A DNA stretch of 64,000 nt from the NCBI GenBank assembly GCA_041650995.1, contig JBAZJZ010000001.1:227166-291165 (forward strand), read 5' to 3'. Below are positions 4,073-53,372 of this stretch, piece by piece (within the stretch, counting starts at the first letter, position 1; each line of letters starts with the position of its first letter). Under the pieces are notes generated by a model. That model was not told the origin of the DNA, ran no database searches, and saw only the letters and a list, made by a program, of their open reading frames with translations. Origin of the DNA: Patescibacteria group bacterium. GTDB taxonomy: Bacteria; Patescibacteriota; Patescibacteriia; XYB2-FULL-38-15. Position numbers and translations under genes: made by a program.

Positions 4073-4101
4073 TTGATTTTTTTCATCCATCGTGGTAAAG
4101 T
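4073..4101 (+). promoter_or_regulatory. promoter TTGATT-17-TAAAGT of cassette A3
   Basis: The flank resembles the wzx promoter region at 5049-5077. Confidence 0.4.
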
Positions 4102-4128
4102 AGGTTGATTTCCTAAAGGAGGAAGGGA

Positions 4129-7692: not shown

Positions 7693-7717
7693 CATATTAA
7701 AATATAAGTGATAATGT
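7689..7717 (+). promoter_or_regulatory. promoter TTGACA-17-TAATGT of cassette B. The -35 overlaps the GT4 stop codon.
   Basis: Seen in sequence. Confidence 0.45.
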
Positions 7718-7740
7718 GCTCACAGAAAGGAGGGCAAGCA

Positions 7741-8022: not shown

Positions 8023-8050
8023 GTCGTGTCTATCCGACTACGCATGGTCA

Positions 8051-8080
8051 CTGGCGAACCTTTGGGAACGCCAGTTTTTA
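8051..8080 (+). terminator. intrinsic terminator CTGGCG..CGCCAG followed by TTTTT
   Basis: Stem with a T-tract. Confidence 0.5.
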
Positions 8081-16828: not shown

Positions 16829-16840
16829 ACTCAAAAAATT

Positions 16841-16880
16841 AAAAAGAGAGACCCTGGTACGACCGGGGTCTCTTTGTTTC
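16841..16880. terminator. bidirectional terminator AGAGACCC..GGGTCTCT flanked by A- and T-runs
   Basis: Lies between convergent genes. Confidence 0.55.
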
Positions 16881-16899
16881 TGTCCTCCTTGTTGGGTAA

Positions 16900-17475
16900 T
16901 TACGCTGCCGCCTCCTTTTCCGGGAAGAAGATGGAAGCGTTGTCTCCGGGAAGGAAGCCCCTTGACTTGTCTCCAAGCCAAAGGGTGACGCGCGCGACGT
17001 TCTGCGCGCGATTGTCTTTCCAGACGATTCTCTTGGCGTAGGAGTGCTCATCGAACTCGGAAACCGGAGAAAGCGGCAGGATGTACTTCTGGCCGAAGAT
17101 CCTGACTTTCTTCAGTCCGTCCGTGACACACTCGATCCCGAGGTTCTGGCCTTGTGGAAAAACGACCACCCGCAAGTCGCGGAAGATACTCTCGTCTTGG
17201 GTGCTTGTCAAAACCAAAACGAGGCTGTAATGGCGCTCGAAGACGTAGAGCGCTAGGTATTCCGTTTCTTGGAGCCAGGTCTCATGCGTCGGCTCAGGTT
17301 CGAGGAATTCGATATCATCAACCGCCCTCGTGTACGGAGCGACGCAGGTTGCCGTGTGTCGCTTCTTGTTGCCCCTTCTGTCGCGCAAGGCGCGGATACA
17401 GACGGCAAGCGAAGAGACGAGCCAGGCGAAGAAAGTCGTGATCCCAGCCCAGATTCCGAGAAAGAACCGCTTCAT
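16900..17475 (-). CDS. hypothetical 191 aa protein with an N-terminal TM/signal segment, GC-rich (cassette C)
   Basis: RBS AAAGGAGGT sits 5 nt upstream of the ATG. The N-terminal hydrophobic stretch is FFLGIWAGITTFFAWLVSSLAV. Confidence 0.55.
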   Translation of the reverse strand: MKRFFLGIWAGITTFFAWLVSSLAVCIRALRDRRGNKKRHTATCVAPYTRAVDDIEFLEPEPTHETWLQETEYLALYVFERHYSLVLVLTSTQDESIFRDLRVVVFPQGQNLGIECVTDGLKKVRIFGQKYILPLSPVSEFDEHSYAKRIVWKDNRAQNVARVTLWLGDKSRGFLPGDNASIFFPEKEAAA

Positions 17476-17572
17476 CGTACACCTCCTTTACGATGGAAGG
17501 TGCGAGGCGAAATTGGCGTTGGCTAAAAGCAGAATCGCCCAGCCATACAAGCCACGCTTCGCAGCTGTTTAC

Positions 17573-17599
17573 TTTATATTATATTACGGGATTTGTCAA
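17573..17599 (-). promoter_or_regulatory. promoter TTGACA-15-TATAAA on the minus strand for cassette C
   Basis: Read from the reverse complement of GGGATTTGTCAAGGG. Confidence 0.35.
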
Positions 17600-17676
17600 G
17601 GGTAAATGAGGTTTGCTGGTTTATTCTTAATTTGCTATACTTTTACTAGAATTTAACGAGGCAGATTTAAGGCTTT

Positions 17677-35242: not shown

Positions 35243-35292
35243 TTAGGCAGTGAGGCGGAAGCCGGGGTCTCCGGGTAGTTGGGATTTTCTCC

Positions 35293-35715
35293 GTGGCTCG
35301 GAGGAGAGAGGAGAGTAAAATAATGGCAGCGGGAAATTCTCGAGTAAGGTATGGTTCAGGTCATTCGACAAGAGAAATGCCCGTTCTTCCGGATTGCCGA
35401 CGGGGCCATGTCTGTATTTCTTCGTCTCGTGGAGCGGGCCATTGTGGCCACTGTGATACGGATTTCATCTGTCCTTCATGCAAACATAATGGCATGAAGA
35501 CCAAGGATTGCGAACCGCCTGCCTTCATCCTGCAGTGTCCCCGATGTCAACACGAAGAACGGATTCACTGGGTTGAGTTTGACATCCAGTGTCCCCGATG
35601 CGGATGTAAAAACGCTTCCGGGACATATTCGAGGTTGCTGGAACCGATCATTCAATGCCCGGACTGCGGACCGAGTAGGGGGGGTGTCGGTCGTGCAGAA
35701 AAGGAGGGGAAATGA
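35293..35715 (+). CDS. multi-zinc-ribbon protein with five CxxC-type pairs, GC-rich (D1). The start is probably the ATG at 35323, behind a GGAGGAGAGAGGAGAG RBS.
   Basis: CGHC..CPSC, CPRC..CPRCGC and CPDCG pairs. Confidence 0.55.
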   Translation: MARRREESKIMAAGNSRVRYGSGHSTREMPVLPDCRRGHVCISSSRGAGHCGHCDTDFICPSCKHNGMKTKDCEPPAFILQCPRCQHEERIHWVEFDIQCPRCGCKNASGTYSRLLEPIIQCPDCGPSRGGVGRAEKEGK

Positions 35716-35933
35716 GCAAACTGCCTGGAAGGCAAGAAGAGGGAAAAATTCCATCCTGGTTTTTGGACGGTCAAGGCCAGATTGGTTGCACGGCAATCGG
35801 AGGCAATCCTCCGTCGACTCTTCTGCACATACCCCCTGTTTTAGAGGGTGTGGATGTGGAACAAGCCTGGTGGCCAAAAAATGGGCTGGGAGGCGATTAT
35901 GAGTTGCTTCCCTGGCTGACGCGCCCAATTTGA
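35712..35933 (+). CDS. hypothetical 73 aa protein (D2)
   Basis: Overlaps the D1 stop in an ATGA. RBS AAGGAGGGG. Confidence 0.45.
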   Translation: MSKLPGRQEEGKIPSWFLDGQGQIGCTAIGGNPPSTLLHIPPVLEGVDVEQAWWPKNGLGGDYELLPWLTRPI

Positions 35934-35954
35934 ACAAAAGAAGGGGAAGACAAG

Positions 35955-36221
35955 GTGGCAAGAAAATCTGGACGTCGTAAGAACATCTTCAGTGGTCTTG
36001 GAATCTCTCCTGAACAAGAAGCTGCGCTCAGAAGAAGGGCGCCGCCGCTTTCGGAGAGACGGTGGCTCGAGATACAACTGCTCATTGCGCGGGATGCGTT
36101 GGCCGACAGTTTTCCCCTGGAACCGATTTTTGTCGTTCCGCCAATCGTGGGACGCGAAGAGCGCAAGCCGCGAAGATCGATTCTGATCGACAACTTCTCC
36201 GGAGTAGAAAGGCTTCGCTAG
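35955..36221 (+). CDS. hypothetical 88 aa protein (D3), GTG start
   Basis: RBS GAAGGGGAAG. Arg-rich. Confidence 0.4.
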   Translation: MARKSGRRKNIFSGLGISPEQEAALRRRAPPLSERRWLEIQLLIARDALADSFPLEPIFVVPPIVGREERKPRRSILIDNFSGVERLR

Positions 36222-36234
36222 GGAGAAGAACTAC

Positions 36235-36462
36235 GTGAGTGAAGACGCTAATTTAAAAGAGCGCGAAGAAGCTTTGCGCCAACGACTTGTTACCTGGGCA
36301 GCACTTACTCCGGAGGAACGTCTGGATGCGAGGGTAAAAAGACTTCGTTTGTGGAAGCGACTCGAGGAAGAAGCCACCGGTGTCTGCAGTCGCGAAGCTG
36401 GTCTGCCCGGTGACTGGGATATTCCTTGCCGACCCGACGTGGAGTTTAAGGAGGTGGATTAG
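36235..36462 (+). CDS. hypothetical 75 aa charged helical protein (D4), GTG start
   Basis: RBS GGGAGAAG. Sequence EERLDARVKRLRLWKRLEEEA. Confidence 0.4.
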   Translation: MSEDANLKEREEALRQRLVTWAALTPEERLDARVKRLRLWKRLEEEATGVCSREAGLPGDWDIPCRPDVEFKEVD

Positions 36463-36521: not shown

Positions 36522-37547
36522 ATGAAAGAGGCTTTATTTTACAAAAAATTATCCAAAAATCGCGTCCAGTGCCAGGCGTGTAGTCATTACTGTAAAATCG
36601 CGCCAGGCAATCGCGGGATTTGTGGCGTTCGGGAAAATCAGGACGGCAAACTTTATTCTTTGGTTTACGGAAAAATTGTCGCCAAAAATGTTGATCCAAT
36701 TGAGAAAAAACCACTTTTTCATTTTTTACCGGGAACAAAAAGTTTATCGATTGCTACGGTCGGCTGCAATTTCAGATGTCTCTATTGTCAGAACGCAGAC
36801 ATTGCCCAGATGCCGAAAGAAAGCGTTTTATTCCGAGAAGGCAACGTCCCAGGAATTGATCTGACGCCAAAAAATATTGTGAACGAGGCATTATTGATCG
36901 GCGCGCCGAGTATAGCTTATACTTATACCGAACCGACGATTTTTATTGAGTTTGCTCTGGAAACAATGAAGCTGGCGCGCCAGAAAAATTTAAAAAATAT
37001 CTGGGTGACAAACGGTTACGCGAGCAAAGAAGTTTTAAAAGAAGTAATCCCCTATCTTGACGCGGCCAATATTGATATAAAAGGTTTTACTGAAGAATTT
37101 TATAATAAAATTTGCGGCGCGAAGTTGCAGCCGGTTTTGGAAGCCGCAAAAATGATGAAGCGCGGCGGTGTTTGGGTAGAAATTACAACGCTTGTTGTGC
37201 CCGAGCAAAATGATACGAAAGAACATTTTGAAAGTATCGCTAAATTTATTGCTAAAAATTTGGGAAAAGAAACTCCGTGGCATATCTCTAAATTTTTTCC
37301 AACTTACAAATTAAAAAACTTGCCACCCACTCCCCAATCATCTTTGATTGAAGCCAGAGAGTTTGGAAAAAAATTCGGTTTGCGCTATATTTATTTAGGT
37401 AATGTGCCGCTCGCGGAAGGCGAAACAACTATTTGCCCAAAGTGCGGCGTTAAAATGATTGAACGTTCTGGTTATGAAATTGTCCGCTACGACAAAGACG
37501 GTAAATGCGCGAATTGTGGTGAAAATTTAAATTTAATTTTAAAATAA
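36522..37547 (+). CDS. amrS: AmmeMemoRadiSam-system radical SAM enzyme
   Basis: An N-terminal CxxCxxxC cluster, the radical SAM motif CNFRCLYC, and a C-terminal CPKCG..CANCG ribbon. Confidence 0.7.
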   Translation: MKEALFYKKLSKNRVQCQACSHYCKIAPGNRGICGVRENQDGKLYSLVYGKIVAKNVDPIEKKPLFHFLPGTKSLSIATVGCNFRCLYCQNADIAQMPKESVLFREGNVPGIDLTPKNIVNEALLIGAPSIAYTYTEPTIFIEFALETMKLARQKNLKNIWVTNGYASKEVLKEVIPYLDAANIDIKGFTEEFYNKICGAKLQPVLEAAKMMKRGGVWVEITTLVVPEQNDTKEHFESIAKFIAKNLGKETPWHISKFFPTYKLKNLPPTPQSSLIEAREFGKKFGLRYIYLGNVPLAEGETTICPKCGVKMIERSGYEIVRYDKDGKCANCGENLNLILK

Positions 37548-37979: not shown

Positions 37980-40613
37980 ATGCCAATGCTCCCGCAAAAT
38001 TTTACCACTAAATCTCAGGAAGCCCTGCAGGCGGCCCAGGGTTTGGTTTTTGAATATAACCATCAATATTTGGATCCTCTTCACGTTTTTTCAGCTCTTT
38101 TGGACCAGGAGGGCGGGATTGTTGGTTCGCTTCTTCAAAAACTGGGGATTAATATAGTTGATTTAAAACAAAGAATTTTAACAGAGTTTCAAAAATTACC
38201 AAAGCACGCCGGTCGGAGGCAAGGAGGTATGGCGCAAATGAATGTTGGGCAGGAAATGGTTCAAGTTTTTTATGCCGTGGAAAAAGAAGCCAAAAAAATG
38301 AAAGATGAATATATTAGCACTGAACATATGCTTTTGGGATTAGTAAGCGTGAAAAGCCGGGCTAGTGAAATTTTATCTGCGGCGGGCGTAACCTACGACG
38401 GAGCGCTTAAGGTTCTCGCTGAAGTTCGCGGTACGCAGAAAGTTGATTCACCGGAACCGGAAGCAAAATACCAAGTTTTGGAAAAATATACGATTAATCT
38501 TACAGAATTAGCTCGTCAGAAAAAACTTGATCCGGTCATAGGCCGCGATGAAGAAATCCGTCGCGTGATGCAAGTGCTTTCGCGCCGGACAAAAAATAAT
38601 CCGGTTTTAATCGGCGAGGCTGGTACGGGAAAAACCGCGATTGTCGAAGGTTTAGCGCAGCGAATCGTGGCCGGCGATGTGCCAGAAAGTTTAAAAGATA
38701 AAGAGTTGGTTTCCTTGGATTTGGGTTCACTTTTGGCTGGGACAAAATTTCGCGGTGAATTTGAAGACCGATTGAAGGCTGTAATTAAAGAAGTAAAACA
38801 AGCCAGCGGAAAAATAATTTTATTTATTGACGAATTGCATACAATCGTTGGGGCGGGCGCGCTTGAGGGAGCGATGGACGCTTCTAATATGTTAAAACCG
38901 GCTCTGGCTCGCGGTGAATTGCATACGATTGGCGCGACAACCATCAAGGAATATCATAAGTACGTGGAAAAAGACGCGGCCCTGGAACGGCGTTTCCAGC
39001 CAGTCTTTGTCGGCGAACCGTCGGTAGAAGATACGATTGCTATCTTGCGTGGCATCAAAGAAAAATATGAGGTTCATCACGGCGTAAAAATTACCGATGC
39101 GGCGATTATCGCGGCGGCAACTCTTTCGCATCGCTATATTTCAGACCGTTTTCTACCCGACAAAGCAGTGGACTTAATTGATGAAGCAACATCCGCACTC
39201 AGAATGGAAATTGATTCTATGCCGACCGAGCTGGATCAGCTGAAAAGAAAAATGATGAAATTGGAAATTGAGCGGCAAGCTTTGATGAAAGAAAAAAATG
39301 AAGACGTAAAAGATGAACTTAAAAAATTAACTAAAGAATTAGCCGAAACGCAGGAAAAATCAAAAGAATTAGAGATCGGCTGGCGTTATGAAAAAGATTT
39401 GATTAGCCAAATTAGAAAAGCGCAAAAACAAATTGATTATTTAAAACAACAAGCTGATATTGCCGAGCGAAAAAGCGAATTAGAAAAAGTCGCCGAGATT
39501 CGTTATGGCAAAATTCCGGAATTAGAAAAAGAAATCAAGACTTTGGAAAAAAAATTAAAAAAAGCGCCAGCAGACAAAAGAATTTTGCGCGAAGAGGTTA
39601 CTGACGAAGATATCGCGAAAGTTGTTTCCCGTTGGACCGGCGTTCCGGTTTCAAAAATGCTTCAAGGTGAGGTGGAAAAATTGGCACACGCCGAGGACGA
39701 ATTGAGCAAAAGAGTTATCGGTCAGAAAGACGCGATAAAAACTATTGCTAATGCGTTGCGTCGTTCACGGGCCGGAATTTCTGAAGAGAAAAAACCGATT
39801 GGCTCATTCATTTTTGTCGGCCCGACCGGCGTTGGTAAAACTGAACTTTCAAAAGCTTTGGCGGAATTTATGTTTAATGATGAAAACGCGCTTGTCAGGG
39901 TTGATATGTCAGAATATATGGAAAAACATTCCGTGGCGCGGCTCGTTGGCTCCCCTCCCGGTTACGTCGGCTATGATGAAGGCGGACAATTAACCGAAGC
40001 TATTCGCCGCCGGCCGTATTCTGTCGTTCTTTTTGATGAAATTGAAAAAGCCCATCCCGAAGTCTTTAATATTTTGCTTCAGATTTTAGACGATGGGCGT
40101 TTGACTGACGGTCGCGGCCGCACCGTGAATTTTAAAAATACGATTATTATCATGACCTCAAATCTTGGTAATCAGGTTATTCGAGATTTTTCTATTGGTT
40201 TTCAAGATGGAGAAAATCGTGAAATAAGCCGCGACAGCGAAATGCGCAGTAAGATTATGGACATTCTTCGAGAGACGTTTAAGTTGGAATTTTTAAACCG
40301 TATTGATGAGATTGTGATCTTCAAGAGTTTGGGAAAAACGGAAATCGGAAAAATTATTGAATTGCAGTTAGTCGAAGTTCAAAAACGGCTTAATGCTAAA
40401 AAAATAAAATTGGATATTGCCGATACAGTTAAAAAGATGCTCGCGGAAAAAGGCTTTGATCCGATTTTTGGAGCCCGTCCATTGAAACGTGTTATTCAAA
40501 ATCAGATTTTAGACGAGCTGGCGCTGCAGATTATTGAGGGAAAAATAAAAGACGGAGATAAGGTGGAGATTGACCTAGGTAAAGAGAAAAAAATTACATT
40601 TGCAATAAAATAA
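37980..40613 (+). CDS. clpB: ClpB disaggregase chaperone (AAA+)
   Basis: Two Walker A motifs, GEAGTGKT and GPTGVGKT, with a long M-domain coiled coil. Confidence 0.9.
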
Positions 40614-40628
40614 AAGTATTTAAAAATT

Positions 40629-40654
40629 ACGGCCGAAAAAGCCGTGGTTTTTTT
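40629..40654 (+). terminator. clpB terminator ACGGC..GCCGT followed by TTTTTTT
   Basis: Stem with a T-tract. Confidence 0.5.
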
Positions 40655-40656
40655 AT

Positions 40657-40704
40657 AAAAAAAGACCCGACTCGGAAGATATTTCAGTCTCTTCACGAGT
40701 CGGG
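40657..40704 (-). terminator. minus-strand terminator CCCGACTCG..CGAGTCGGG for the island E operon
   Basis: An A-run precedes the stem on the + strand, which gives a T-tract on the - strand. Confidence 0.5.
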
Positions 40705-40722
40705 GTGACTCCAGTCTGGGAG

Positions 40723-40914
40723 TCAGCAGGGTCTAAACGCGATGGGTTCGCGCCGCCAGCCGAAACCGTCCGTCATCTTCTCGCTTCTCCCCCCTTCGCG
40801 AAGCGCGCCGTCCTGTGGTGCACCACAAAAGGCAATCGCAACCGGCGGTGGGGACGAAAAGAGCCGTGCCAGGTTTCGCGTGACGAAGTGCGCGAACAGT
40901 CCAGCACTTAGCAT
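40723..40914 (-). CDS. hypothetical 63 aa protein (E3), GC-rich
   Basis: RBS GGAGGAGG sits 6 nt upstream of the ATG. Confidence 0.35.
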   Translation of the reverse strand: MLSAGLFAHFVTRNLARLFSSPPPVAIAFCGAPQDGALREGGRSEKMTDGFGWRREPIAFRPC

Positions 40915-41016
40915 GCCGGACCTCCTCCGTTCCCTCGGATTTGGGTCAGTGTTAGGTTCCCGCCATTCTTCTTTCTTCGCCCGGGTTTCAGCGCGACGGC
41001 TGACGCTGTCCCGGGC

Positions 41017-41217
41017 TTATGCAGCGAGCGAGCACTCTCCCAAGATCACCTTGGTGAAGACCGCGTCGGACGTGCCTCGGGTTCCAGCTGTTGGCTGGTT
41101 CCCGTGCGCACCAAAAGTGCCAAGGAAGATGTCGGGCAAGGGTTCGAGCCAGAGATCCGGAACGAGCGTCACAGCGACCGCGACGCCAATCATCGGACCG
41201 AGGAAATCCACCATCAC
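41017..41217 (-). CDS. hypothetical 66 aa protein (E2), coupled to E1 by an ATGA overlap
   Basis: An internal ATG of the 126-aa track ORF overlaps the E1 stop. Confidence 0.35.
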   Translation of the reverse strand: MMVDFLGPMIGVAVAVTLVPDLWLEPLPDIFLGTFGAHGNQPTAGTRGTSDAVFTKVILGECSLAA

Positions 41218-41450
41218 CGCTCTCCTTTCGCGAATCGCCTTCTCTCCCCTACGTTCCTTATCTTGCCCCAAACCCACATGATTCCGGAGAGGAATGAGAA
41301 AAAGCACAGGAAGTATGGCCACAGCAAGATCACGATAATGATGAGGGAGACGTCTGACAGATTGGACTTCAATTCCTTCCGGAGTTGCTTCCAACATACC
41401 ACGACTACTAGGGCCGCGACGATCCCGACGATCCAGATTGTGGTTGCCAC
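41214..41450 (-). CDS. hypothetical 78 aa small membrane protein (E1), GTG start
   Basis: Two hydrophobic helices. RBS GAGAGGGAAG. Confidence 0.45.
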   Translation of the reverse strand: MATTIWIVGIVAALVVVVCWKQLRKELKSNLSDVSLIIIVILLWPYFLCFFSFLSGIMWVWGKIRNVGERRRFAKGER

Positions 41451-41513
41451 GTTACTTCCCTCTCTATTTCTACGCGGGCAAAATGCCTCGCGTTAAGGTT
41501 TTAACCTTTTGAT

Positions 41514-41542
41514 TAGATTAAGACAGGATTAATTTTCTGTCA
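41514..41542 (-). promoter_or_regulatory. promoter TTGACA-17-TAATCT on the minus strand for the E operon. Coordinates are approximate.
   Basis: Reverse complement of CTGTCAAGAG...AGATTA. Confidence 0.35.
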
Positions 41543-41599
41543 AGAGATAATTTATAAATAAAAAGAGCCGACCCAAGGTTTGACAACCTATGGATCGGC

Positions 41600-41860
41600 G
41601 GATGACGAGAGTTGGCGTCCTCGAAGTAGTACCGTCAGGTTGACGGTCGCTGAGTAGCGTCAAGGTGTTTGACTACACCGAGGACAGAAGCCTGGTGGCG
41701 CCGGTGGGGTCCGGTCAGGTCGACGTGGACGTCGGGGAAGCGAACATGTGATTTCCGCTGTCGCGCGAACGCGCGAACGGACCGTACCTGATTCCCATCT
41801 GATCCTCCTTCTTCCGTAGGGGGGTTGCCTTTCACCGTGGAAGACTTCCCCACCCCATGA
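41600..41860 (-). other. GC-rich structured transcription unit with three tandem palindromes, a 27-codon ORF (MGIRYGPFARSRDSGNHMFASPTSTST) behind a GAAGGAGGA RBS, and its own imperfect terminator at about 41560-41600
   Basis: The palindromes are CCGTCAggTTGACGG, GACGCT..AGCGTC and GGTGTttgactACACC. Confidence 0.3.
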
Positions 41861-41866
41861 TGTCAA

Positions 41867-41895
41867 TATATTAACACAAGATTGTGTTGTTGTCA
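41867..41895 (-). promoter_or_regulatory. promoter TTGACA-17-TAATAT on the minus strand driving the structured unit
   Basis: It sits back to back with the + strand extended -10 (TGgTAAAAT) of the next gene. Confidence 0.35.
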
Positions 41896-41997
41896 AGAGG
41901 AAAATGTGGTAAAATAGAATCAGCAGTCATTTTGAATTATGGTTTTTGTTTTTAACTTAGCCATAATTCCCGATTCATAATTCATGACTAAAAACCC

Positions 41998-43392
41998 ATG
42001 AAAAATATTAAATTTAGAAAATTCATAAGTTTTGTTGCCCTTATTTCTATCTTTCTGCCCAATCTTGCTTTTGCCGAATTTAATCCAAACTATATTATTT
42101 CCGATCAGGAATTAACTGATCAAAATTCAATGTCTTTGACACAGGTTCAAAAGTTTCTGGAAGATAAGGGCAGTTCTCTCGCCCATTACGCGACAATTGA
42201 TACTGACGGCCTTGGCCGGACTGCCTCGGAAATTATCTGGCGAGTGGCCCAAAGTTATAAAATCAGCCCAAAGGTTTTGCTTGTTACCTTACAAAAAGAA
42301 CAAAGTTTAGTTACGACCGCTGTTCCAACACAAAAACAACTTGATTGGGCAACGGGCTACGGTATTTGTGATTCTTGTTCCATGTCCGACCCTACTCTTC
42401 AAAAATACAAAGGTTTTGCCACTCAAGTTGATTACGCAGCCGGCTGGAAAAGATGGTTTTTAGATAATGCCTTGACCCTCTCCTGGGTAAAACTTCCCGG
42501 CGTAACTTATTTAATTGATACTTACAAAATTACTCCGAGTAATTTGGCCACGGCGGCTTTTTACACTTATACTCCGCACTATCATGGAAATTATAATTTT
42601 TGGAAACTTTGGCAGGATTGGTTTGGAAAATTTTTCCCTGATGGAACAGTTTTAAAAGAAGCTGATGGAACTGGTATTTGGTTGCTTCAACGCGGACTAA
42701 AACGCCAATTTTCCAGTTACTCCGCTTTTATTTCCCGTTATTCTCCGGATAAACTAATTACCGTGTCAAAAAGCGAATTGGAAAATTATGAAACAGGCAC
42801 GCCAATAAAGTTCCCTGATTATTCTCTTCTCCGCTCACCCGCCGGCACGGTTTATCTTTTAGTCGGCGATACGCGACGCGGCTTTTCTTCAAACGAAGTT
42901 TTCCGGACAATCGGATTTAATCCTGATGAGGTCATGGACGCGACATGGGAAGATTTAAACGCCTACATTGAAAACGATCCAATCACTATGCAAAGCGTTT
43001 ACCCGACAGGCGCGCTTTTGCAGGATAAAACTTCGGGCGGAGTTTACTATGTGGAAAACGGAATAAAAAAGCCTCTTTGGGCAAAACAATTTTTAACTTT
43101 ATATTTTGCGAATAAAAAAATCACGGTTGTCTCTCCTGATGAATTAAAGAAATATCCGACGGGCGAACCGGTAAGATTCAAGGATGGCGAACTGGTTCTT
43201 GGAGAAAGTGCCCCAACAGTTTATTTTATTTCAAATGGTGAACGACGGCCGATTCCCACAGAACAAGTTTTTAACGGTCTTGGATTTAAATGGACGAATA
43301 TTATAAAAACCACGGATAAAATTTTATCCCTGCATCCGCTCGGTTCGACAATTTACCTTGGCGGCGCAGTAGAGACAACGGTCAACAATTAA
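41998..43392 (+). CDS. secreted protein with four internal repeats of about 45 aa in the C-terminal half
   Basis: Signal peptide FISFVALISIFLPNLAFA. The repeats follow the pattern G.VY...NG.RRPI....F..LGF. Confidence 0.55.
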   Translation: MKNIKFRKFISFVALISIFLPNLAFAEFNPNYIISDQELTDQNSMSLTQVQKFLEDKGSSLAHYATIDTDGLGRTASEIIWRVAQSYKISPKVLLVTLQKEQSLVTTAVPTQKQLDWATGYGICDSCSMSDPTLQKYKGFATQVDYAAGWKRWFLDNALTLSWVKLPGVTYLIDTYKITPSNLATAAFYTYTPHYHGNYNFWKLWQDWFGKFFPDGTVLKEADGTGIWLLQRGLKRQFSSYSAFISRYSPDKLITVSKSELENYETGTPIKFPDYSLLRSPAGTVYLLVGDTRRGFSSNEVFRTIGFNPDEVMDATWEDLNAYIENDPITMQSVYPTGALLQDKTSGGVYYVENGIKKPLWAKQFLTLYFANKKITVVSPDELKKYPTGEPVRFKDGELVLGESAPTVYFISNGERRPIPTEQVFNGLGFKWTNIIKTTDKILSLHPLGSTIYLGGAVETTVNN

Positions 43393-43411: not shown

Positions 43412-44203
43412 ATGCTGACTTTCGCGGCAATTACTCCTCATCCTCCAATTTTAATTCCTACAATCGGCCGAGAAAATACAAAAATAATTAAAAAAACCGC
43501 CGAAGCAATGGAAGAGTTGGAGAAAAAACTTTTCGAAGCCAAGCCTGATATCATAATTGTTATTTCTCCCCACGGCGTGCTTTTGCCGGACGCTTTTTCA
43601 ATTAATTTAAATCCTGAATACGTGAGTAATTTGGAAGAATTTGGTGATTTTTCTACTAAAATCAAATTTAAAACAAACACAGCTTTGGCTTTTCGTATCA
43701 AGGAATTGATGGAAGATAAAAATATTCCCCTAACTTTAACGAGCAACGTATTTTTGGATCATGGTGTAGTTGTTCCTCTTTATTTTTTGACAAAAAGGCT
43801 TTCGAAAGTTTCTATTTTACCTATCAGCTACTCATTGCTTGATTTTAAAACAAATTTTAATTTTGGAGATATTCTAAAGGAAATAATTTTAAATGAAGAT
43901 AAAAAAATCGCGGTCATCGCATCAGGAGATCTTTCTCATTGTCTTACTAAAGACGCGCCAGCAGGATATTCGCCGCGAGGTAAAGAATTTGATGATAAAT
44001 TGATTGAGCTTATCACTAATAAAAATACTGCGGGAATTTTAAAATTAGATACCGATCTAGTAGAAAAAGCCGGTGAGTGCGGTCTGCGCTCCATTTTAAT
44101 TCTTCTTGGATTGCTTGAAAGAATAAATTACACGCCAGAAATTTTATCATACGAGGGTCCATTTGGGGTTGGCTATCTCGTCGCCAATTTTAAACTTGAA
44201 TAA
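43412..44203 (+). CDS. amrB: AmmeMemoRadiSam system protein B-like (Memo/LigB superfamily)
   Basis: ITPHPPIL, ISPHG and SGDLSH motifs. It is adjacent to an AMMECR1 gene. Confidence 0.5.
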   Translation: MLTFAAITPHPPILIPTIGRENTKIIKKTAEAMEELEKKLFEAKPDIIIVISPHGVLLPDAFSINLNPEYVSNLEEFGDFSTKIKFKTNTALAFRIKELMEDKNIPLTLTSNVFLDHGVVVPLYFLTKRLSKVSILPISYSLLDFKTNFNFGDILKEIILNEDKKIAVIASGDLSHCLTKDAPAGYSPRGKEFDDKLIELITNKNTAGILKLDTDLVEKAGECGLRSILILLGLLERINYTPEILSYEGPFGVGYLVANFKLE

Positions 44204-44729
44204 AATGAATGCTCATGTAAAACTGGCCAAGGATACAATTGAAGCTTATCTTAAAACAGGAAAAATCCCTCCCCTGCCCGATAATTTGCCAAAAAATTTT
44301 TTGACTTCCCGGGCGGGGGTTTTTGTAAGTATATATAATGGCGATGATTTACGCGGCTGTATCGGAACATATCTTCCGACAGAGCAAAGCCTTGCGGAAG
44401 AAATTATCCAAAATTCACTTTCCGCAGCGACTAGCGATTATCGCTTTAAACCGATTACGGAGAAAGAATTACCAGATTTTTCTTATTCAGTCTATATTTT
44501 AAGCGAGCCGCGAAAAATAAAAAATTTGAAGGAGCTTAATCCAAAAAAATACGGCATTTTAATTAAATCGGAAACGGGAAAATCAGGACTCCTTTTACCG
44601 GATTTGGAAGGAATTAATACCGTAGAAGAACAGCTATCAGCTGTTTGTAGCAAATGCGGTGTAGATTTATCAAAAGAAAAAATCACCATTTTTAAATTTA
44701 GCGCTACAAAATACGATTCAAATAATTAA
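44163..44729 (+). CDS. amrA: AMMECR1-domain protein (AmmeMemoRadiSam system protein A)
   Basis: LRGCIGTY hallmark motif. Confidence 0.75.
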   Translation: MGLAISSPILNLNKMNAHVKLAKDTIEAYLKTGKIPPLPDNLPKNFLTSRAGVFVSIYNGDDLRGCIGTYLPTEQSLAEEIIQNSLSAATSDYRFKPITEKELPDFSYSVYILSEPRKIKNLKELNPKKYGILIKSETGKSGLLLPDLEGINTVEEQLSAVCSKCGVDLSKEKITIFKFSATKYDSNN

Positions 44730-48477: not shown

Positions 48478-48505
48478 ATTATACACTATTCTATGAATTT
48501 GTCAA
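48478..48505 (-). promoter_or_regulatory. promoter TTGACA-16-TATAAT on the minus strand
   Basis: A perfect consensus. Confidence 0.45.
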
Positions 48506-48508
48506 GAT

Positions 48509-48542
48509 AAAAAGAAGTGGCGTCAACTTGCGTTAACGCCAC
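48509..48542 (-). terminator. minus-strand terminator GTGGCGTcAAC..GTTaACGCCAC for cassette F
   Basis: One mismatch in the stem. T-run on the minus strand. Confidence 0.45.
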
Positions 48543-48580
48543 TAAGAGAAATGATTTTGTAGTTCGGGTGAGGATTTGGG

Positions 48581-48973
48581 CTAGCCCCTCCATGAAACGT
48601 CGGTCAGGGGCACGCTGACCTCTACCTGGCGTTGCGGCCAGCCGTTCTCCGGACCGATCCTCCTGGCCGTCTCGCCCATCGTCTGGACGAATCGGCGAAG
48701 CGCGGAGTCGCTCCGACCCTCCCTCGTTTCGAAGGGAGGCGCGAGGTGCTCCAGAAGATCGGGCGAGAAGCCAATCGTGATCTGGAGCGGATCCTTGATG
48801 CCGTGTTCCTGGCTCGCAGGGATCGAGCTGTCGGGCATCACCGTGATGTCTTCCGGTTTCAATTTCAACCCGAAGTTGAAACGGCGGCATGCTTCGCGGA
48901 GCATCCGCTCGAGCCGTCCACAGCTGAACTCGTGGCTTCCTCCTCCTTTGACCAAAAATTTCACTTTGCCCAT
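48581..48973 (-). CDS. hypothetical 130 aa protein, GC-rich (cassette F)
   Basis: RBS GGGAAGGAGAAAG. The alternative 178-aa and 137-aa frames are R-rich or low complexity. Confidence 0.5.
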   Translation of the reverse strand: MGKVKFLVKGGGSHEFSCGRLERMLREACRRFNFGLKLKPEDITVMPDSSIPASQEHGIKDPLQITIGFSPDLLEHLAPPFETREGRSDSALRRFVQTMGETARRIGPENGWPQRQVEVSVPLTDVSWRG

Positions 48974-49032
48974 CTCTTGTCTTTCTCCTTCCCTTTCCCC
49001 CTACTGCCGCCCTATGCAGCAAACTCGATTAT

Positions 49033-49060
49033 ATTTTATACTTAATTGATATTTTGTCAA
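49033..49060 (-). promoter_or_regulatory. promoter TTGACA-16-TAAAAT on the minus strand for cassette F
   Basis: Consensus hexamers. Confidence 0.45.
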
Positions 49061-49111
49061 GATTAAAAACCTCCGCTTTCACGGGGGTTTTTGTCAAAAC
49101 TTTTGTCCCGG

Positions 49112-50815
49112 TTATTTTTTTAACTTTTGAATAAATATATCACAAAAAATTATATATCCAATTCCCAAAGGATGGTTCAAATATGGACTAAAAAAATTTG
49201 TGGCTAAAAGGGCGGCTAATCCGGCCAAAAACCCGAATGCTATAAATACCCCAGAACGCCCCAAACCCCAGCCAGAACGCCAAATTTTAGCGATAAAAAG
49301 AAGATAAACAACTAGTCCGGCCAAGCCAATTTTAAGCATTATATCCAAATATCCCCATTCAAAAGCGTAGGTTGTAAAAATCCCCCCTGGATTAACCTGA
49401 ACCGCGCGAGGATCACTGCTTTTGTAAGTGACTGTTGTCCCAAACCCTGAACCAATAATTGGATGTTTTATAATTGCTTGTCCAAGCGGTGGCAAAAGAT
49501 CCCAACGGCTCCGGACCGCGGCTTCGTCTAAATCGGTCAGGCGGTCGCTAAACATTGAAGCAAAAGAAATTCTTCCCGGCTCGGGAAATGGAAATTGCGC
49601 GGTCGCGAAAGTCGCGGACAAAGAAATTACTAAAATGGCGAGGCCGGCTAAACCAATTTTTACAATTTTTCCCAAAGAAAATTTTTGAATAATTAAAATT
49701 ATCAAAAGTGCGAGAAGTCCGACCGCGAGCCCAACCCAAAAACTTCGAGAAAAACTGATCAAAACCGAAGTCAATGATCCAATCGCCAATAACCAATATC
49801 TCTTGTCCTTTTTGTTTTGCCAAATTAAGAAAGCGGAAAAAATAAAAAACCCAATCAGTAAATAAATCTGCGACTGGAAAAATATTCGGTAAAAACCGCT
49901 TGGCATTAATGTAACTTCTCCGATTAAAAATTGCCGGAGCCAACGATAGATCGGAAGAACTGCGACTTCAAAACCATGAGAAAAAATGTAAAGGAAGAAA
50001 AAAGTTTTGATAATAATAACCGTAACGGCGGCGGTGAAAATTTGTAAAACATTTTCAATTTGTTCGCGCGATTTTATAACATCAACGAGCGGGAAAATAA
50101 TGCCAAAATAAAGCCAGCCATTAAAATCAAAAAATAAATTTTGGAAAGAGTTGCCGCGAATTAATCCCCAAATAAATCCCCAGATAATAAATGCAAACAA
50201 TATCCAATACCATTTATTTAGCGAAAATTTAAAATCCCGTTTTTCAATTCTTCTATATACCCAAACTGCCATCACAATTAAAAATAAGGCAATGCGCAGA
50301 GAGACCGAAGTTCCGCCTAAATCAAAATAAAATAAATATCCTTTTGAACCAATAAACAATTCTGCTAATAGGATATAAATTCCATATTCCAATTTTTCCA
50401 AAGTTAAAACTAAAGTCAGGCCAAGAATAACAAAAAATGATACTTTATTAAAGAGCGGGAAAAAATACGCGACAAAAGACAAAATTAACGCGAAAGAAAC
50501 GAAGAGCAGCGAGGTTTTAAAATATTTTCCGAATAAGTTCATATCTTGACAATTTATATTTTTATTGATAGATTGTAGTGTAGCCTGAACAATCTCGTTT
50601 AGGCCAGAAGGAGGGTATAAGGGATGAATTCCCGACTCGAAAGACTCAAGGTGACGATCGCGAAGTGCGAGAAGATCGAGGAGATTTTCGCCAAGCATCG
50701 CGTTCGCGGAACGGAGCCCACCCACTACGACGACGTGATCGCCGGCTTCGACACTCCGGCGCGAAGCGGCTTTCTCTTGAGGTGGGATCTCGTGGTTAAG
50801 GGTTCGGCCGGCCAC
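49112..50815 (-). CDS. O-antigen ligase/polymerase-like (Wzy_C-type) polytopic membrane protein. The true start is probably ATG at about 50542 (MNLFGKYF).
   Basis: About 12 TM segments. The N-terminal 95 aa of the track ORF are GC-rich and antisense to cassette H. Confidence 0.6.
   Translation of the reverse strand: MAGRTLNHEIPPQEKAASRRSVEAGDHVVVVGGLRSANAMLGENLLDLLALRDRHLESFESGIHPLYPPSGLNEIVQATLQSINKNINCQDMNLFGKYFKTSLLFVSFALILSFVAYFFPLFNKVSFFVILGLTLVLTLEKLEYGIYILLAELFIGSKGYLFYFDLGGTSVSLRIALFLIVMAVWVYRRIEKRDFKFSLNKWYWILFAFIIWGFIWGLIRGNSFQNLFFDFNGWLYFGIIFPLVDVIKSREQIENVLQIFTAAVTVIIIKTFFFLYIFSHGFEVAVLPIYRWLRQFLIGEVTLMPSGFYRIFFQSQIYLLIGFFIFSAFLIWQNKKDKRYWLLAIGSLTSVLISFSRSFWVGLAVGLLALLIILIIQKFSLGKIVKIGLAGLAILVISLSATFATAQFPFPEPGRISFASMFSDRLTDLDEAAVRSRWDLLPPLGQAIIKHPIIGSGFGTTVTYKSSDPRAVQVNPGGIFTTYAFEWGYLDIMLKIGLAGLVVYLLFIAKIWRSGWGLGRSGVFIAFGFLAGLAALLATNFFSPYLNHPLGIGYIIFCDIFIQKLKK
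50546..50574 (+). promoter_or_regulatory. promoter TTGACA-17-TAGATT for cassette H. It abuts the ligase start codon on the other strand.
   Basis: Seen in sequence. Confidence 0.45.
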
Positions 50816-51094
50816 AGAGAAAACCTCCTGGGGCGAGAACCGACCTGCATCGAGATTTCTCTCTCGGGCGGGGAACGGGGTGACCGGCTGATCATCCTCT
50901 CCTACCTCCCGGAGACCCGCGGCTGGACGATCGAAGGATCGACCGATATCGGTCTGGACGGGATTCCAGCCATTCGCAACCTGGCCGCCGACTGCAGGCT
51001 TTCGGCCGGCGAGGAGCGCCAGATCGGTGAGGACGAAGCGATGAAGATCATCGCCACGCTCGCCGTTTTCTATAAGAGCCAGCCCGTGGGCTAG
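50624..51094 (+). CDS. hypothetical 156 aa protein, GC-rich (cassette H)
   Basis: RBS GAAGGAGGG. Confidence 0.55.
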   Translation: MNSRLERLKVTIAKCEKIEEIFAKHRVRGTEPTHYDDVIAGFDTPARSGFLLRWDLVVKGSAGHRENLLGREPTCIEISLSGGERGDRLIILSYLPETRGWTIEGSTDIGLDGIPAIRNLAADCRLSAGEERQIGEDEAMKIIATLAVFYKSQPVG

Positions 51095-51121
51095 ACCTCG
51101 ACGGACGGAGGAACGAACTAC

Positions 51122-51165
51122 CGCCGACTAAAAAGCGAAAGCTAATTAGTCGGCGTTTTTTTATT
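51122..51165 (+). terminator. terminator CGCCGACTAA..TTAGTCGGCG followed by TTTTTTT
   Basis: 10-bp stem. Confidence 0.55.
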
Positions 51166-52742: not shown

Positions 52743-52789
52743 AAAAACAAGATAAAAAGATCCACCAGGGCACAGCCAGTAGTGGATCA
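52743..52789 (-). terminator. minus-strand terminator GATCCAC..GTGGATC with a T-run
   Basis: Downstream of the GC-rich paralog. Confidence 0.5.
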
Positions 52790-52818
52790 GATGGAAAATA
52801 TTCGGTTGTACTGCTCGG

Positions 52819-53280
52819 CTACCTCACGGGTTGGAATTGGATCTTGCCCTCATCCCCGGTTCTGCTCACGATCTCCATGTAGTAGAGTTCGATCTCGAGC
52901 CTGGGGCAACGCCGTTGCAGCGTATCTCGCGCGGCTCGCATATCGTCCTCATGGGCCGCTCTCTCCGCTTCAAGGCTCGGGAACGCCTCCGAACCGCCCC
53001 AGGCCTTGCAGTCGCGATGGGCGATCAAGATGACCCGCGTAGCTTGGTGGTGATGGTCAGAGACCCTACTGAACGCACCCAGGAAAACGTTCCTTGTTTC
53101 TCGATCGGTGTAGACCCTCGGCCCAGAAGGAAAAGTGTAGGGCGTGTAGAATAGAATGCCCAGCTCGTGCCTCAAGAAATCCTGGTGCTGCTGGACAAAC
53201 CGATAGTCCAGACAGAAGACGGCTACTACCGGGACTCTCAGTTTGAGATCAACCAGGTACAACTTACTTGCTTCTCTCAT
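52819..53280 (-). CDS. beta-carbonic-anhydrase-like zinc-site protein, the GC-rich copy (cassette I)
   Basis: CLDYR (CxDxR) and HRDC (HxxC). RBS AAGGAGGAGGG. Homologous to the adjacent native gene. Confidence 0.55.
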   Translation of the reverse strand: MREASKLYLVDLKLRVPVVAVFCLDYRFVQQHQDFLRHELGILFYTPYTFPSGPRVYTDRETRNVFLGAFSRVSDHHHQATRVILIAHRDCKAWGGSEAFPSLEAERAAHEDDMRAARDTLQRRCPRLEIELYYMEIVSRTGDEGKIQFQPVR

Positions 53281-53372
53281 CTTCCCTCCTCCTTAACTCC
53301 TCCCCCTGTTTATTTTTTCAAAAAATTTAAAAAAATAAACCGAGAGACGTTATCTTTCGGCAAAGAATATTT

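What the first reader, a model, noticed from the sequence alone, without database searches (positions are those of the whole stretch)
40657..41560. Island E: a GC-rich minus-strand operon of three small proteins including a two-helix membrane protein
Between clpB and a secreted protein gene, a minus-strand promoter (TTGACA-17-TAATCT) precedes three genes. E1 is a GTG-start 78-aa two-TM protein. E2 is 66 aa and overlaps E1 in ATGA. E3 is 63 aa with a GGAGGAGG RBS. A strong hairpin terminator, CCCGACTCG..CGAGTCGGG, follows. The low-complexity 179-aa + strand ORF here is antisense and probably spurious. A small membrane protein with coupled partners resembles holin-like, toxin or bacteriocin-immunity modules.
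Basis: partly seen in the sequence, partly recalled or inferred. Interest (0 to 1): 0.65.

Follow-up and report, generated by a model that had tools for sequence, protein, structure and literature searches.

The report
Orphan small-protein operon in Patescibacteria
The GC-rich stretch is a real minus-strand operon for three tiny proteins found only in one narrow group of ultra-small bacteria; public annotations of this genome mis-call it, it comes and goes between close relatives, and its function is unknown.

Summary
Window 40657-41560 is one minus-strand transcription unit: a TTGACA-17-TAATCT promoter, a structured leader, E1 (78 aa, GTG start, two helices), E2 (65 aa), a conserved hairpin between E2 and E3, E3 (63 aa), and a strong terminator.

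Fourteen related Patescibacteria (Falkowbacteria-like) loci carry the unit at the same place, downstream of clpB. E2 belongs to a family of about 20 proteins of 58-68 aa. E1 has only 5 database relatives and is missing from 9 of 15 loci. E3 stays open in frame everywhere but evolves fast.

Public gene calls for this genome give the + strand 179-aa ORF (JGI/ENA) or the 126-aa ORF (NCBI). Both are artefacts.

No Pfam, NCBIfam, PHROG, PADLOC, Rfam, phage or plasmid match exists. AlphaFold gives no fold for E2.

The site is a hot spot. It is empty in two relatives, and other relatives carry other cassettes there.

Best reading: an accessory, fast-evolving operon for small membrane or exported proteins. 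The holin, toxin and bacteriocin-immunity ideas are not supported. Interest is moderate to low, lifted slightly by the many similar GC3-rich cassettes in this genome.

The parts
41515..41543 (-). Sigma-70-type promoter: -35 TTGACA at 41543-41538, 17-nt spacer, -10 TAATCT at 41520-41515
   Evidence: Pattern match (6 such sites in the window against 0.19 expected). Both hexamers are conserved in 10 related loci.
41451..41510 (-). Structured 5' leader. Hairpin 1 is AAGGUU-loop-AACCUU (41508-41495). Hairpin 2 is ACGCGaGGC-AUUUU-GCCCGCGU (41493-41472). The E1 ribosome-binding site GAGAGGGAAG follows at 41464-41455.
   Evidence: MFE -16.9 kcal/mol, z = -3.4. Nearly invariant in 10 loci; the hairpin-1 loop varies in length while the stems stay fixed. 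Exact-pattern scans found it only at this locus: 5 JGI contigs and 0 viral.
41214..41450 (-). E1: 78-aa, GTG-start, two-helix membrane protein with a basic C-terminal tail. An optional member of the operon.
   Evidence: ORF. Kyte-Doolittle hydrophobic segments. AlphaFold helical hairpin at pLDDT 74. In-frame homologues with a shared (L/I)(I/L/F)WP motif in L003, L085, L087, L088, L090. Only 5 relatives among 5.8 billion clusters. GC3 0.71 against GC2 0.38.
41017..41214 (-). E2: 65-aa acidic protein with a hydrophobic N-terminal segment of about 20 aa and a C-terminal ...TR(C/G)T...GECSLAA tail. Its ATG shares one base with the E1 stop.
   Evidence: 21 relatives: 18 of 64-68 aa and 3 read-through variants of 75-85 aa. 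17 representatives among 1.84 billion and no link to any larger family. Always in the same synteny. Indels between close pairs are multiples of 3. Pooled pN/pS is 0.76 in frame against 0.89 and 0.94 off frame. GC3 0.70. AlphaFold gives no confident fold, pLDDT 50.
40979..41016 (-). Conserved hairpin between E2 and E3, starting right after the E2 stop: GCCCGGG-a-CAGCG-UCAGCCGUCG-CGCUG-aaa-CCCGGGC
   Evidence: The folded 105-nt E2-E3 spacer has MFE -40.7 kcal/mol, z = -2.6. RNAalifold on 10 loci finds 3 inner-stem pairs with compensatory double changes, AU to GC. L092 has a compensated outer stem, GCCCGGA/UCCGGGC.
40960..40971 (-). Conserved single-stranded motif GAAGAAUGGCGG downstream of the hairpin
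   Evidence: Present in 9 of 10 aligned loci. It is not a consistent start codon. Its function is unknown.
40723..40928 (-). E3: ribosome-binding site GGAGGAGG (40928-40921) and a 63-aa ORF (40914-40723). The protein is rich in Pro, Gly and Arg, contains Cys, and evolves fast. Its N-terminus M-x-S-A-G-L-F is conserved.
   Evidence: ORF. The ribosome-binding site, ATG and an open frame of 60-101 codons are kept in 12 loci. Pooled pN/pS is 0.65 in frame against 0.97 and 0.88 off frame. tblastn finds relatives only at this locus.
40655..40725 (-). 3' end: small hairpin GACUCC-n6-GGAGUC (40724-40707), then an intrinsic terminator with a 9+5 bp stem (40704-40666) and a U-run (40665-40657)
   Evidence: MFE -33.4 kcal/mol, z = -7.2, and 0 of 200 shuffles fold as well. 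Conserved in the relatives. L005 shows a compensated GACCCC/GGGGUC in the small hairpin.
40742..41281 (+). Antisense 179-aa ORF. Spurious: it is not part of the element, although JGI and ENA pipelines call it a gene.
   Evidence: Called in L001 and in the protein collection. The frame is not conserved in L002 or L005. GC1/2/3 = 0.53/0.64/0.65.

Best explanation
**What it is**
Island E is a real, self-contained accessory operon confined to a narrow Falkowbacteria-like lineage of Patescibacteria.

**How it is built (shown)**
- A near-consensus sigma-70 promoter drives an mRNA of about 850 nt.
- The mRNA starts with two conserved 5' hairpins.
- It is translated into up to three small proteins:
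  - E1, a two-helix integral membrane protein with a basic tail. It is optional.
  - E2, a 65-aa acidic peptide with a hydrophobic N-terminal segment and a Cys-bearing C-terminal tail.
  - E3, a peptide rich in Pro, Gly, Arg and Cys that evolves rapidly.
- E1 and E2 are translationally coupled: their stop and start overlap.
- A hairpin with covarying base pairs sits just after the E2 stop.
- A strong intrinsic terminator ends the unit tail-to-tail with clpB.

**Function (inferred)**
- The hairpin most likely acts as an RNA processing or stability element, or as a translational control element that uncouples E3 output from E1/E2.
- The products act at the cell envelope, either membrane-inserted or exported.
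- They serve a dispensable, conflict- or interaction-related role, such as contact with a host, a competitor or a phage. They are not housekeeping proteins.
For: **Transcription unit.** The promoter, leader, ribosome-binding sites, start codons and terminator are present and conserved in 14 related loci.

**Coding.**
- E2 relatives total 21 and 17 cluster representatives. NCBI annotates several as hypothetical proteins.
- E1 has 5 relatives, and the 2-helix pattern and WP motif are conserved.
- GC3 far exceeds GC2 in the E1 and E2 frames.
- Pooled pN/pS is at or tied for lowest in the proposed frames: E1 0.74 (tied with one off frame), E2 0.76, E3 0.65.
- Indels between close pairs are multiples of 3.
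- One relative has E2 and E3 fused into a single 189-aa ORF (P0026).

**RNA element.** The inner stem of the hairpin shows compensatory changes, and so does the outer stem in L092.

**Accessory, variable nature.**
- The site is empty in L006 and L007. L008 carries a different cassette.
- E1 is present in 6 of 15 loci. L086 and L090 have 99% identical E3 but differ in whether E1 is present.
- A secreted protein with RTX calcium-binding repeats occupies the same hot spot in L003, L082 and L087.

**Envelope targeting.** All three proteins have hydrophobic N-terminal segments. Conserved Cys residues occur in E2 and in long forms of E3.
Against: - No expression or peptide data exist.
- Purifying selection is weak (pN/pS 0.65-0.76). 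The contrast with off frames is modest, and absent for E1 frame 1.
- The first nucleotide-level test was ambiguous.
- E2 gets no confident AlphaFold fold.
- The N-termini of E2 and E3 lack the basic n-region of classical Sec or lipoprotein signals, so export is inferred only from hydrophobicity.
- The non-coding parts are more conserved than the coding parts. This leaves room for an RNA-level function.
- Nothing links the proteins to any characterised family.
Confidence: 0.6

Rival explanations
1. Peptide bacteriocin or toxin plus immunity. E2 and/or E3 are exported antimicrobial peptides, and the membrane protein E1 protects the producer.
For: - The peptides are small, contain Cys and evolve fast, and a small membrane protein sits in the same operon.
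- The locus varies between strains.
Against: - E1 is missing from 9 of 15 loci that keep intact E2 and E3.
- There is no double-glycine or classical Sec leader.
- No C39 peptidase, ABC exporter or modification enzyme lies among the adjacent genes.
- No Pfam or NCBIfam bacteriocin or immunity match was found.
Confidence: 0.12
2. Holin-like lysis module or small membrane-toxin (type I toxin-antitoxin-like) module, centred on E1.
For: E1 has the gross shape of a class II holin or membrane toxin: 78 aa, two transmembrane helices and a charged C-terminal tail.
Against: - No endolysin or phage genes are nearby, and there are no PHROG, phage-database or IMG/VR hits.
- No + strand promoter-like site for an antisense RNA lies inside the island.
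- E1 is the dispensable member. E2 and E3 are the conserved core.
Confidence: 0.05
3. The unit is mainly a structured non-coding or regulatory RNA, and the ORFs are by-products of GC-rich sequence.
For: - It is a GC-rich island in an AT-rich genome.
- The leader, the hairpin between E2 and E3, and the 3' hairpins are the best-conserved parts and show covariation.
- Protein-level constraint is weak.
- E2 has no predicted fold.
Against: - Each ORF has a strong Shine-Dalgarno sequence plus a start codon, conserved across loci.
- Frames stay open in all loci despite indels, and close-pair indels are multiples of 3.
- E1 and E2 show a coding-type GC3 excess.
- E1 keeps a conserved two-helix hydrophobic pattern.
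- No Rfam family matches, even at E = 10.
Confidence: 0.08
4. E2 (and perhaps E3) is a precursor peptide modified by the flanking AmmeMemoRadiSam system, that is, the radical SAM enzyme, Memo and AMMECR1.
For: - The island lies inside a split AmmeMemoRadiSam cluster: TIGR04337 at 36522-37547, TIGR04336 at 43412-44203 and TIGR04335 at 44163-44729.
- E2 has conserved Cys residues and a conserved C-terminal GECSLAA.
Against: - The three system genes stay in place in relatives whose spacer is empty, L006 and L007.
- By my own knowledge, the system is widespread in organisms that have no E2.
- The operon is convergent with clpB and has its own promoter and terminator.
- Several E2 variants lack the Cys or the tail.
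Confidence: 0.03
5. The real gene is the + strand 179-aa ORF (as in the JGI/ENA annotation) or the 126-aa minus-strand ORF (as in NCBI PGAP).
For: Automatic pipelines call both for this same genome.
Against: - The 179-aa frame is interrupted or shifted in L002 and L005. It spans the E2-E3 spacer, which carries indels that are not multiples of 3.
- Its GC2 is about equal to its GC3.
- The N-terminal 60 aa of the 126-aa ORF overlap the conserved E1 frame.
- In E1-less loci that extension does not exist, and E2 starts at its own ribosome-binding site and ATG.
Confidence: 0.02

Closest known systems
Phage 'morons' (independent promoter-gene-terminator units of deviant composition inserted between conserved genes)
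   Same: - It is a self-contained unit with its own consensus promoter and intrinsic terminator.
- Its GC3 of about 0.7 contrasts with about 0.3 in neighbouring core genes.
- It sits between conserved genes and is present or absent in close relatives.
- Several similar islets exist in the same window.
   Different: - It sits in a bacterial chromosome between housekeeping genes (clpB and the AmmeMemoRadiSam genes), not in a prophage.
- There are no phage hits.
- It is inherited at one fixed site across a clade.
Class II (two-transmembrane) holins, e.g. phage 21 S
   Same: E1 has similar size, two helices and a charged C-terminal tail.
   Different: - No sequence or profile similarity was found.
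- There is no endolysin or lysis cassette.
- E1 is an optional member of its operon.
Class II bacteriocin plus immunity-protein operons
   Same: Small Cys-containing peptides are co-transcribed with a small membrane protein, the locus varies between strains, and the sequences diverge fast.
   Different: - There is no recognisable leader type.
- No exporter or peptidase gene is adjacent.
- The putative immunity gene is often missing while the peptides persist.
Intercistronic stem-loops that set differential mRNA stability in bacterial operons (e.g. REP or malE-malF-type elements; from my own knowledge)
   Same: A stable GC-rich hairpin lies directly after an upstream cistron's stop, without a U-tract, and its pairing is preserved by compensatory changes.
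   Different: It is a single-copy, lineage-specific sequence and not a dispersed repeat. Its function is untested.

Membership tests
E2-type orphan family (Patescibacteria 'hypothetical protein', e.g. WC348_04265, KKD80_03120, ABII19_00225) | Length of about 58-68 aa with the shared motifs M-V-V-D-x-L-G-P, W-x-E and G-A-x-G, with T-R-C-T in most members | tested here: met
   Profile hits at E = 1e-14 to 2e-29. The invariant columns are listed. The window's E2 has G in place of the Cys in T-R-C-T.
E2-type orphan family (Patescibacteria 'hypothetical protein', e.g. WC348_04265, KKD80_03120, ABII19_00225) | Fixed synteny between clpB and the 464-aa secreted-protein gene, with Memo and AMMECR1 beyond | tested here: met
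   All contigs examined show it.
Class II holin | Small protein with two transmembrane helices and a charged C-terminal tail | tested here: met
   Kyte-Doolittle profile. AlphaFold helices 2-26 and 33-74. The tail is GKIRNVGERRRFAKGER.
Class II holin | Encoded in a phage or prophage lysis cassette next to an endolysin | tested here: not met
   The neighbours are clpB, a small RNA-like unit, a 464-aa secreted protein and Memo. No PHROG, phage or IMG/VR hits were found.
Class II holin | Profile or structural similarity to a holin family | tested here: not met
   Pfam and PHROG matches have E > 0.01 only. The best BFVD Foldseek match has E = 6.
Class II bacteriocin plus immunity | Precursor with a double-glycine or Sec-type leader | tested here: not met
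   E2 starts M-V-(V)-D-x-L-G-P. It has an acidic residue, no basic n-region and no GG cleavage motif. This was checked by eye only; no SignalP was available.
Class II bacteriocin plus immunity | Dedicated exporter or C39 peptidase, or an accessory gene, in the locus | tested here: not met
   None lies among the genes flanking the operon in any locus.
Class II bacteriocin plus immunity | The immunity gene is inherited together with the peptide gene | tested here: not met
   E1 is absent from L002/L093, L004, L005, L082, L086, L089, L091 and L092, all of which keep E2 (L091 ends within E3).
Class II bacteriocin plus immunity | Antimicrobial activity of the peptide | not testable with these tools
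   Requires an experiment.
Type I toxin-antitoxin | A cis- or divergently encoded antisense RNA with its own promoter overlapping the toxin mRNA | tested here: not met
   The consensus scan finds no + strand promoter-like site within 40600-41560. The scan is strict, so this is weak negative evidence.
Any Rfam RNA family | Covariance-model score at or above the gathering threshold | tested here: not met
   0 hits at gathering threshold in the whole window. Only chance-level hits, E > 1, in 40550-42000.
RiPP precursor of the AmmeMemoRadiSam system | Co-occurrence of the peptide gene with the modifying genes | tested here: not met
   The system genes persist in L006 and L007 without the island.
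Moron-like accessory cassette | Own promoter and terminator, deviant composition, and insertion between conserved genes | tested here: met
Moron-like accessory cassette | Resides in a prophage genome | tested here: not met
   The flanks are core chromosomal genes, and no phage genes or hits were found.

The most novel reading that the evidence does not exclude
Island E may be one example of an undescribed way that this Patescibacteria lineage diversifies its surface or interaction repertoire.
- Dozens of GC3-rich 'plug-in' cassettes would sit in intergenic hot spots between core genes. Each would carry its own promoter, strong ribosome-binding site, orphan small-protein genes and a terminator hairpin.
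- They would be gained, lost and swapped by recombination through shared terminator or 3' modules. In L003, a 135-nt direct repeat flanks the cassette for the RTX-repeat protein.
- E2 and E3 would then be a new class of exported Cys-containing peptides.
- The conserved leader and the hairpin between E2 and E3 would be a new regulatory RNA.
Probability: 0.15. Interest if true: 0.7.

Novelty: new variant of a known kind. Interest (0 to 1): 0.38.

Why it matters
- **Annotation.** The analysis corrects the gene model of a public genome. Two pipelines call wrong ORFs here. It also defines three small-protein families that standard gene callers tend to miss or mis-frame in GC-rich islets of an AT-rich genome.
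- **Biology.** Patescibacteria live attached to other cells, and little is known about what mediates or varies those contacts. Small envelope proteins that evolve fast and differ between strains, expressed from strong promoters, are plausible candidates.
- **Genome evolution.** The window suggests that about a tenth of this tiny genome consists of such GC3-rich orphan cassettes. If so, that would be a notable feature of how streamlined genomes keep a flexible gene pool.
- **Limits.** Without expression or functional data, this locus alone is of modest interest.

Tried and rejected
- **Known RNA families.** The Rfam scan of the whole window at gathering threshold found nothing. The scan of the region at E <= 10 gave only chance-level hits.
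- **Known protein families.** Pfam, PHROG, PADLOC and NCBIfam scans of E1, E2, E3 and the antisense ORFs gave nothing significant.
- **E1 homologues.** A search with E1 alone found nothing. Only an alignment of five E1 sequences recovered 5 relatives.
- **Remote E2 homologues.** A full HMMER profile search with E2 against 1.84 billion representatives found no family beyond the same clade.
- **Structure.**
  - The AlphaFold model of E2 has pLDDT 50 and is unusable, so I ran no fold search on it.
  - A fold search with E1 against viral structures gave no meaningful match.
- **Mobile-element origin.**
  - blastn of the island against phage and plasmid collections found no match.
  - The leader-motif scan of IMG/VR returned 0 hits. 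The scan of JGI metagenomes returned 5 contigs, all at the same locus.
  - A protein-pattern scan of viral contigs failed because the E2 alignment has no stretch conserved enough.
- **Paralogues.** blastn of the island against the rest of the window, and tblastn of E1-E3 against the window and all 94 loci, found no other copy.
- **Selection tests.** The first dN/dS attempt, on a multiple nucleotide alignment, was ambiguous. I replaced it with pooled pairwise estimates.
- **RNA-RNA pairing.** I ran RNAduplex between the neighbouring unit 2 RNA and the E mRNA. On sequences this long it returns meaningless full-length duplexes, so I discarded the result.
- **Integron cassette idea.** Rejected. 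The terminal hairpins lack the attC core sites, and no integrase is nearby. I judged this by inspecting the sequence, not with a dedicated attC model.
- **Literature.** Two literature searches found no description of these families or of GC-rich islets in Patescibacteria.
Full report
**Origin and context**

The window comes from a 543-kb contig of an ENA metagenome assembly (ERZ27247363, k141_674185). The ClpB next to the finding is 88-94% identical to ClpB of seven Patescibacteria MAGs, several of them labelled Candidatus Falkowbacteria (L002-L008).

The window is 40.5% GC. It contains many short islands of 53-59% GC. Island E (40651-41314, 58% GC) is one of them.

**The observation**

| Element | Coordinates (minus strand) | Note |
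|---|---|---|
| Promoter TTGACA-17-TAATCT | 41543-41515 | |
| E1, GTG start, 78 aa | 41450-41214 | |
| E2 | 41214-41017 | |
| E3, 63 aa | 40914-40723 | preceded by GGAGGAGG |
| Terminator, 9+5 bp stem plus U-run | 40704-40657 | the folded 71-nt 3' stretch 40725-40655 gives dG -33.4, z = -7.2 |

One detail needs correcting. The E1 stop shares one base with the E2 ATG (TGATG), which gives 65 aa.

**Comparative evidence**

I compared the spacer between clpB and the downstream 464-aa gene across relatives.

| Locus | Spacer length (nt) | Content |
|---|---|---|
| Window | 1384 | island E plus unit 2 |
| L002 | 1068 | island E (no E1) plus unit 2 |
| L004 | 1101 | island E (no E1) plus unit 2 |
| L003 | 2308 | island E, an extra cassette, and unit 2 |
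| L006 | 132 | empty |
| L007 | 138 | empty |
| L008 | 583 | a different cassette |

So this spacer is a variable hot spot.

Where island E is present, the following are conserved: the promoter, a leader of about 60 nt, the ribosome-binding sites, the start codons, the reading frames, a hairpin between E2 and E3, and the terminator. Seven further loci came from E2 homologues, and four from a scan for the leader motif. They show the same layout and the same synteny.

**Which ORFs are real**

*E2*
- A profile of five E2 sequences found 21 proteins among 5.8 billion clusters. Eighteen are 64-68 aa, three are read-through variants of 75-85 aa, and all come from Patescibacteria. NCBI annotates three as hypothetical proteins.
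- An exhaustive HMMER scan of 1.84 billion representatives found 17 proteins and no link to a larger family.
- In loci without E1, the E2 ATG follows the shared leader and ribosome-binding site directly. The short frame is therefore the real one, not the 126-aa frame.

*E1*
- It is kept in frame in L003, L085, L087, L088 and L090, with two hydrophobic helices and a shared (L/I)(I/L/F)WP motif.
- It has only 5 database relatives.
- AlphaFold models it as a helical hairpin at pLDDT 74.

*E3*
- It keeps its ribosome-binding site, its ATG and an open frame of 60-101 codons in 12 loci.

*Composition and selection*
- GC by codon position is coding-like for E1 (0.46/0.38/0.71) and E2 (0.64/0.47/0.70). 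It is not for the + strand 179-aa ORF (0.53/0.64/0.65).
- Pooled pN/pS is at or tied for lowest in the proposed frames.

| Gene | Proposed frame | Off frames |
|---|---|---|
| E1 | 0.74 | 0.74 and 1.12 |
| E2 | 0.76 | 0.89 and 0.94 |
| E3 | 0.65 | 0.97 and 0.88 |

- For E1, one off frame is tied with the proposed frame.
- Indels between close pairs are multiples of three.
- Constraint is therefore real but weak. These are fast-evolving proteins.

*The + strand 179-aa ORF*
- It is split or shifted in L002 and L005.

*Public annotations*
- For this very genome, JGI and ENA call the 179-aa ORF, and NCBI calls the 126-aa ORF (MFA5128626.1).
- None lists E1, the 65-aa E2 or E3.

**RNA features**

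- The leader folds into two hairpins (dG -16.9, z = -3.4) and is almost invariant across loci.
- The hairpin just after the E2 stop has an invariant 7-bp outer stem and a 5-bp inner stem.
  - Three inner-stem pairs show compensatory double changes across 10 loci.
  - L092 compensates the outer stem, GCCCGGA/UCCGGGC.
- A conserved GAAGAAUGGCGG motif follows the hairpin.
- These non-coding parts are better conserved than the coding parts.
- No Rfam family matches.

**What it is not**

- Nothing matches in Pfam, PHROG, PADLOC or NCBIfam.
- Nothing matches in the phage or plasmid collections or in IMG/VR.
- E2 has no confident predicted fold, and the E1 model has no structural neighbour among viral proteins.
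- No endolysin, exporter, peptidase or antisense promoter is present.
- E1 is absent from 9 of 15 loci that keep E2 (the L091 contig ends inside E3). L086 and L090 have 99% identical E3 but differ in whether E1 is present.
  - E1 is therefore gained or lost readily.
  - The junction lies at similar ribosome-binding-site-like sequences, which suggests short-repeat deletion. That step is inference.
  - This pattern argues against E1 as an obligatory immunity or toxin partner.

**Interpretation**

The best-supported reading is an accessory operon, specific to this lineage, for small membrane or exported proteins that evolve fast.

The evidence for an envelope location is indirect:
- All three proteins have hydrophobic N-terminal segments.
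- Cys residues are conserved in E2 and in long forms of E3.
- In L003, L082 and L087 the same hot spot also holds a secreted protein with RTX calcium-binding repeats.

I infer that the hairpin between E2 and E3 is a processing, stability or translational control element. What the proteins do remains unknown.

**Wider pattern**

- Other GC-rich islets in the window have the same build: a TTGACA promoter, a strong ribosome-binding site, orphan ORFs with GC3 of 0.6-0.78, and a terminator.
- The islet at 35.25-36.46 kb is absent from L002 and replaced by other sequence in the other relatives.
- In L003, a 135-nt direct repeat (91% identity) flanks the cassette for the RTX-repeat protein.
- Together these resemble phage morons, but in a chromosome. 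This is the most novel reading the evidence leaves open. I did not test it beyond these two sites.

**Verdict**

The gene model is supported and corrects public annotation. The proposed function is unsupported. The element belongs to no characterised family, but nothing here shows a new mechanism. Interest is moderate to low.

Noticed in passing
window 41567-41896 (minus strand): A second independent unit lies between island E and the 464-aa gene.
- Promoter: TTGACA-17-TAATAT at 41896-41868.
- A structured 5' leader, then the ribosome-binding site GAAGGAGGA (41811-41803).
- A 27-codon micro-ORF, MGIRYGPFARSRDSGNHMFASPTSTST (41798-41715). Its M-x-(I/V)-R-Y-G-P start and Ser/Thr-rich tail recur in L004, L005, L082, L086, L088 and L089; L003 starts MTRTRYGPF. 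L002 and L087 lack it.
- A 3' region of about 150 nt has a long-range stem that covaries: GUCCUCG/CGAGGAC here against GUUCUCGG/CCGAGAAC in relatives.
- Terminator at 41599-41567.
It looks like a dual-function small RNA or a micropeptide gene. It has no Rfam match.
   Followed up: partly
window 3600-4900, 7689-8080, 16840-17602, 35250-36460, 48480-49063, 50543-51160, 52765-53300: At least seven further GC-rich islets (53-59% GC) have the build of island E. Most have a TTGACA promoter, an AAGGAGG-type ribosome-binding site, ORFs with GC3 mostly 0.6-0.78 (one ORF in the 35.25-36.46 kb islet is 0.48) and a terminator. They have no Pfam match, apart from a weak Pro_CA_2 hit for 52819-53280. They look like a genome-wide population of accessory cassettes.
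   Followed up: partly
window 35250-36460 against L002-L008: This 1.2-kb GC-rich islet has three or four small ORFs, one of them rich in Cys-x-x-C pairs. It is precisely absent from L002. In L003-L008 it is replaced by 170-900 nt of mostly unrelated sequence. It is a second variable hot spot, only 2 kb from island E.
   Followed up: partly
window 36522-37547, 43412-44203, 44163-44729: The three genes of the AmmeMemoRadiSam system are split around clpB, the hot spot and the 464-aa secreted protein. They are the radical SAM enzyme (TIGR04337), protein B/Memo (TIGR04336) and protein A/AMMECR1 (TIGR04335). This arrangement is conserved in all close relatives.
   Followed up: partly
L003 9719-9853 and 10570-10704: A 135-nt direct repeat (91% identity, 851 nt apart) corresponds to the 3' end and terminator of unit 2. 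It flanks a cassette for a 196-aa secreted, Cys-rich protein with RTX calcium-binding repeats. The same cassette sits on different sides of the E operon in L082 and in L087. This suggests cassettes move by recombination through shared 3' modules.
   Followed up: partly
window 40742-41281 (+) and 41017-41397 (-): Public gene calls for this same genome disagree with each other and with the comparative evidence. JGI and ENA list the 179-aa + strand ORF. NCBI lists the 126-aa ORF (MFA5128626.1, WC445_01515). E1, the 65-aa E2 and E3 are not in the 15-billion-protein collection.
   Followed up: yes
protein P0026 (189 aa) and P0013, P0015, P0017: In one metagenomic relative, E2 and E3 form a single fused ORF that reads through the hairpin between them. 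Three others have E2 variants whose C-terminus is frameshifted into the hairpin (...HAREPRD...). These could be real variants or assembly errors.
   Followed up: no
window 1-64000: Cumulative GC skew rises until about 41-48 kb and then falls. Gene orientation switches from mostly + to mostly - near 48 kb. This is what a replication terminus would look like. No tRNA gene and no Rfam family at gathering threshold occurs anywhere in the 64 kb.
   Followed up: no
L006 8634-8766: The 'empty' spacer of L006 still holds a minus-strand TTGACA box next to a GCCGACCC-type terminator half. This looks like the remnant left after the cassette content was deleted.
   Followed up: no
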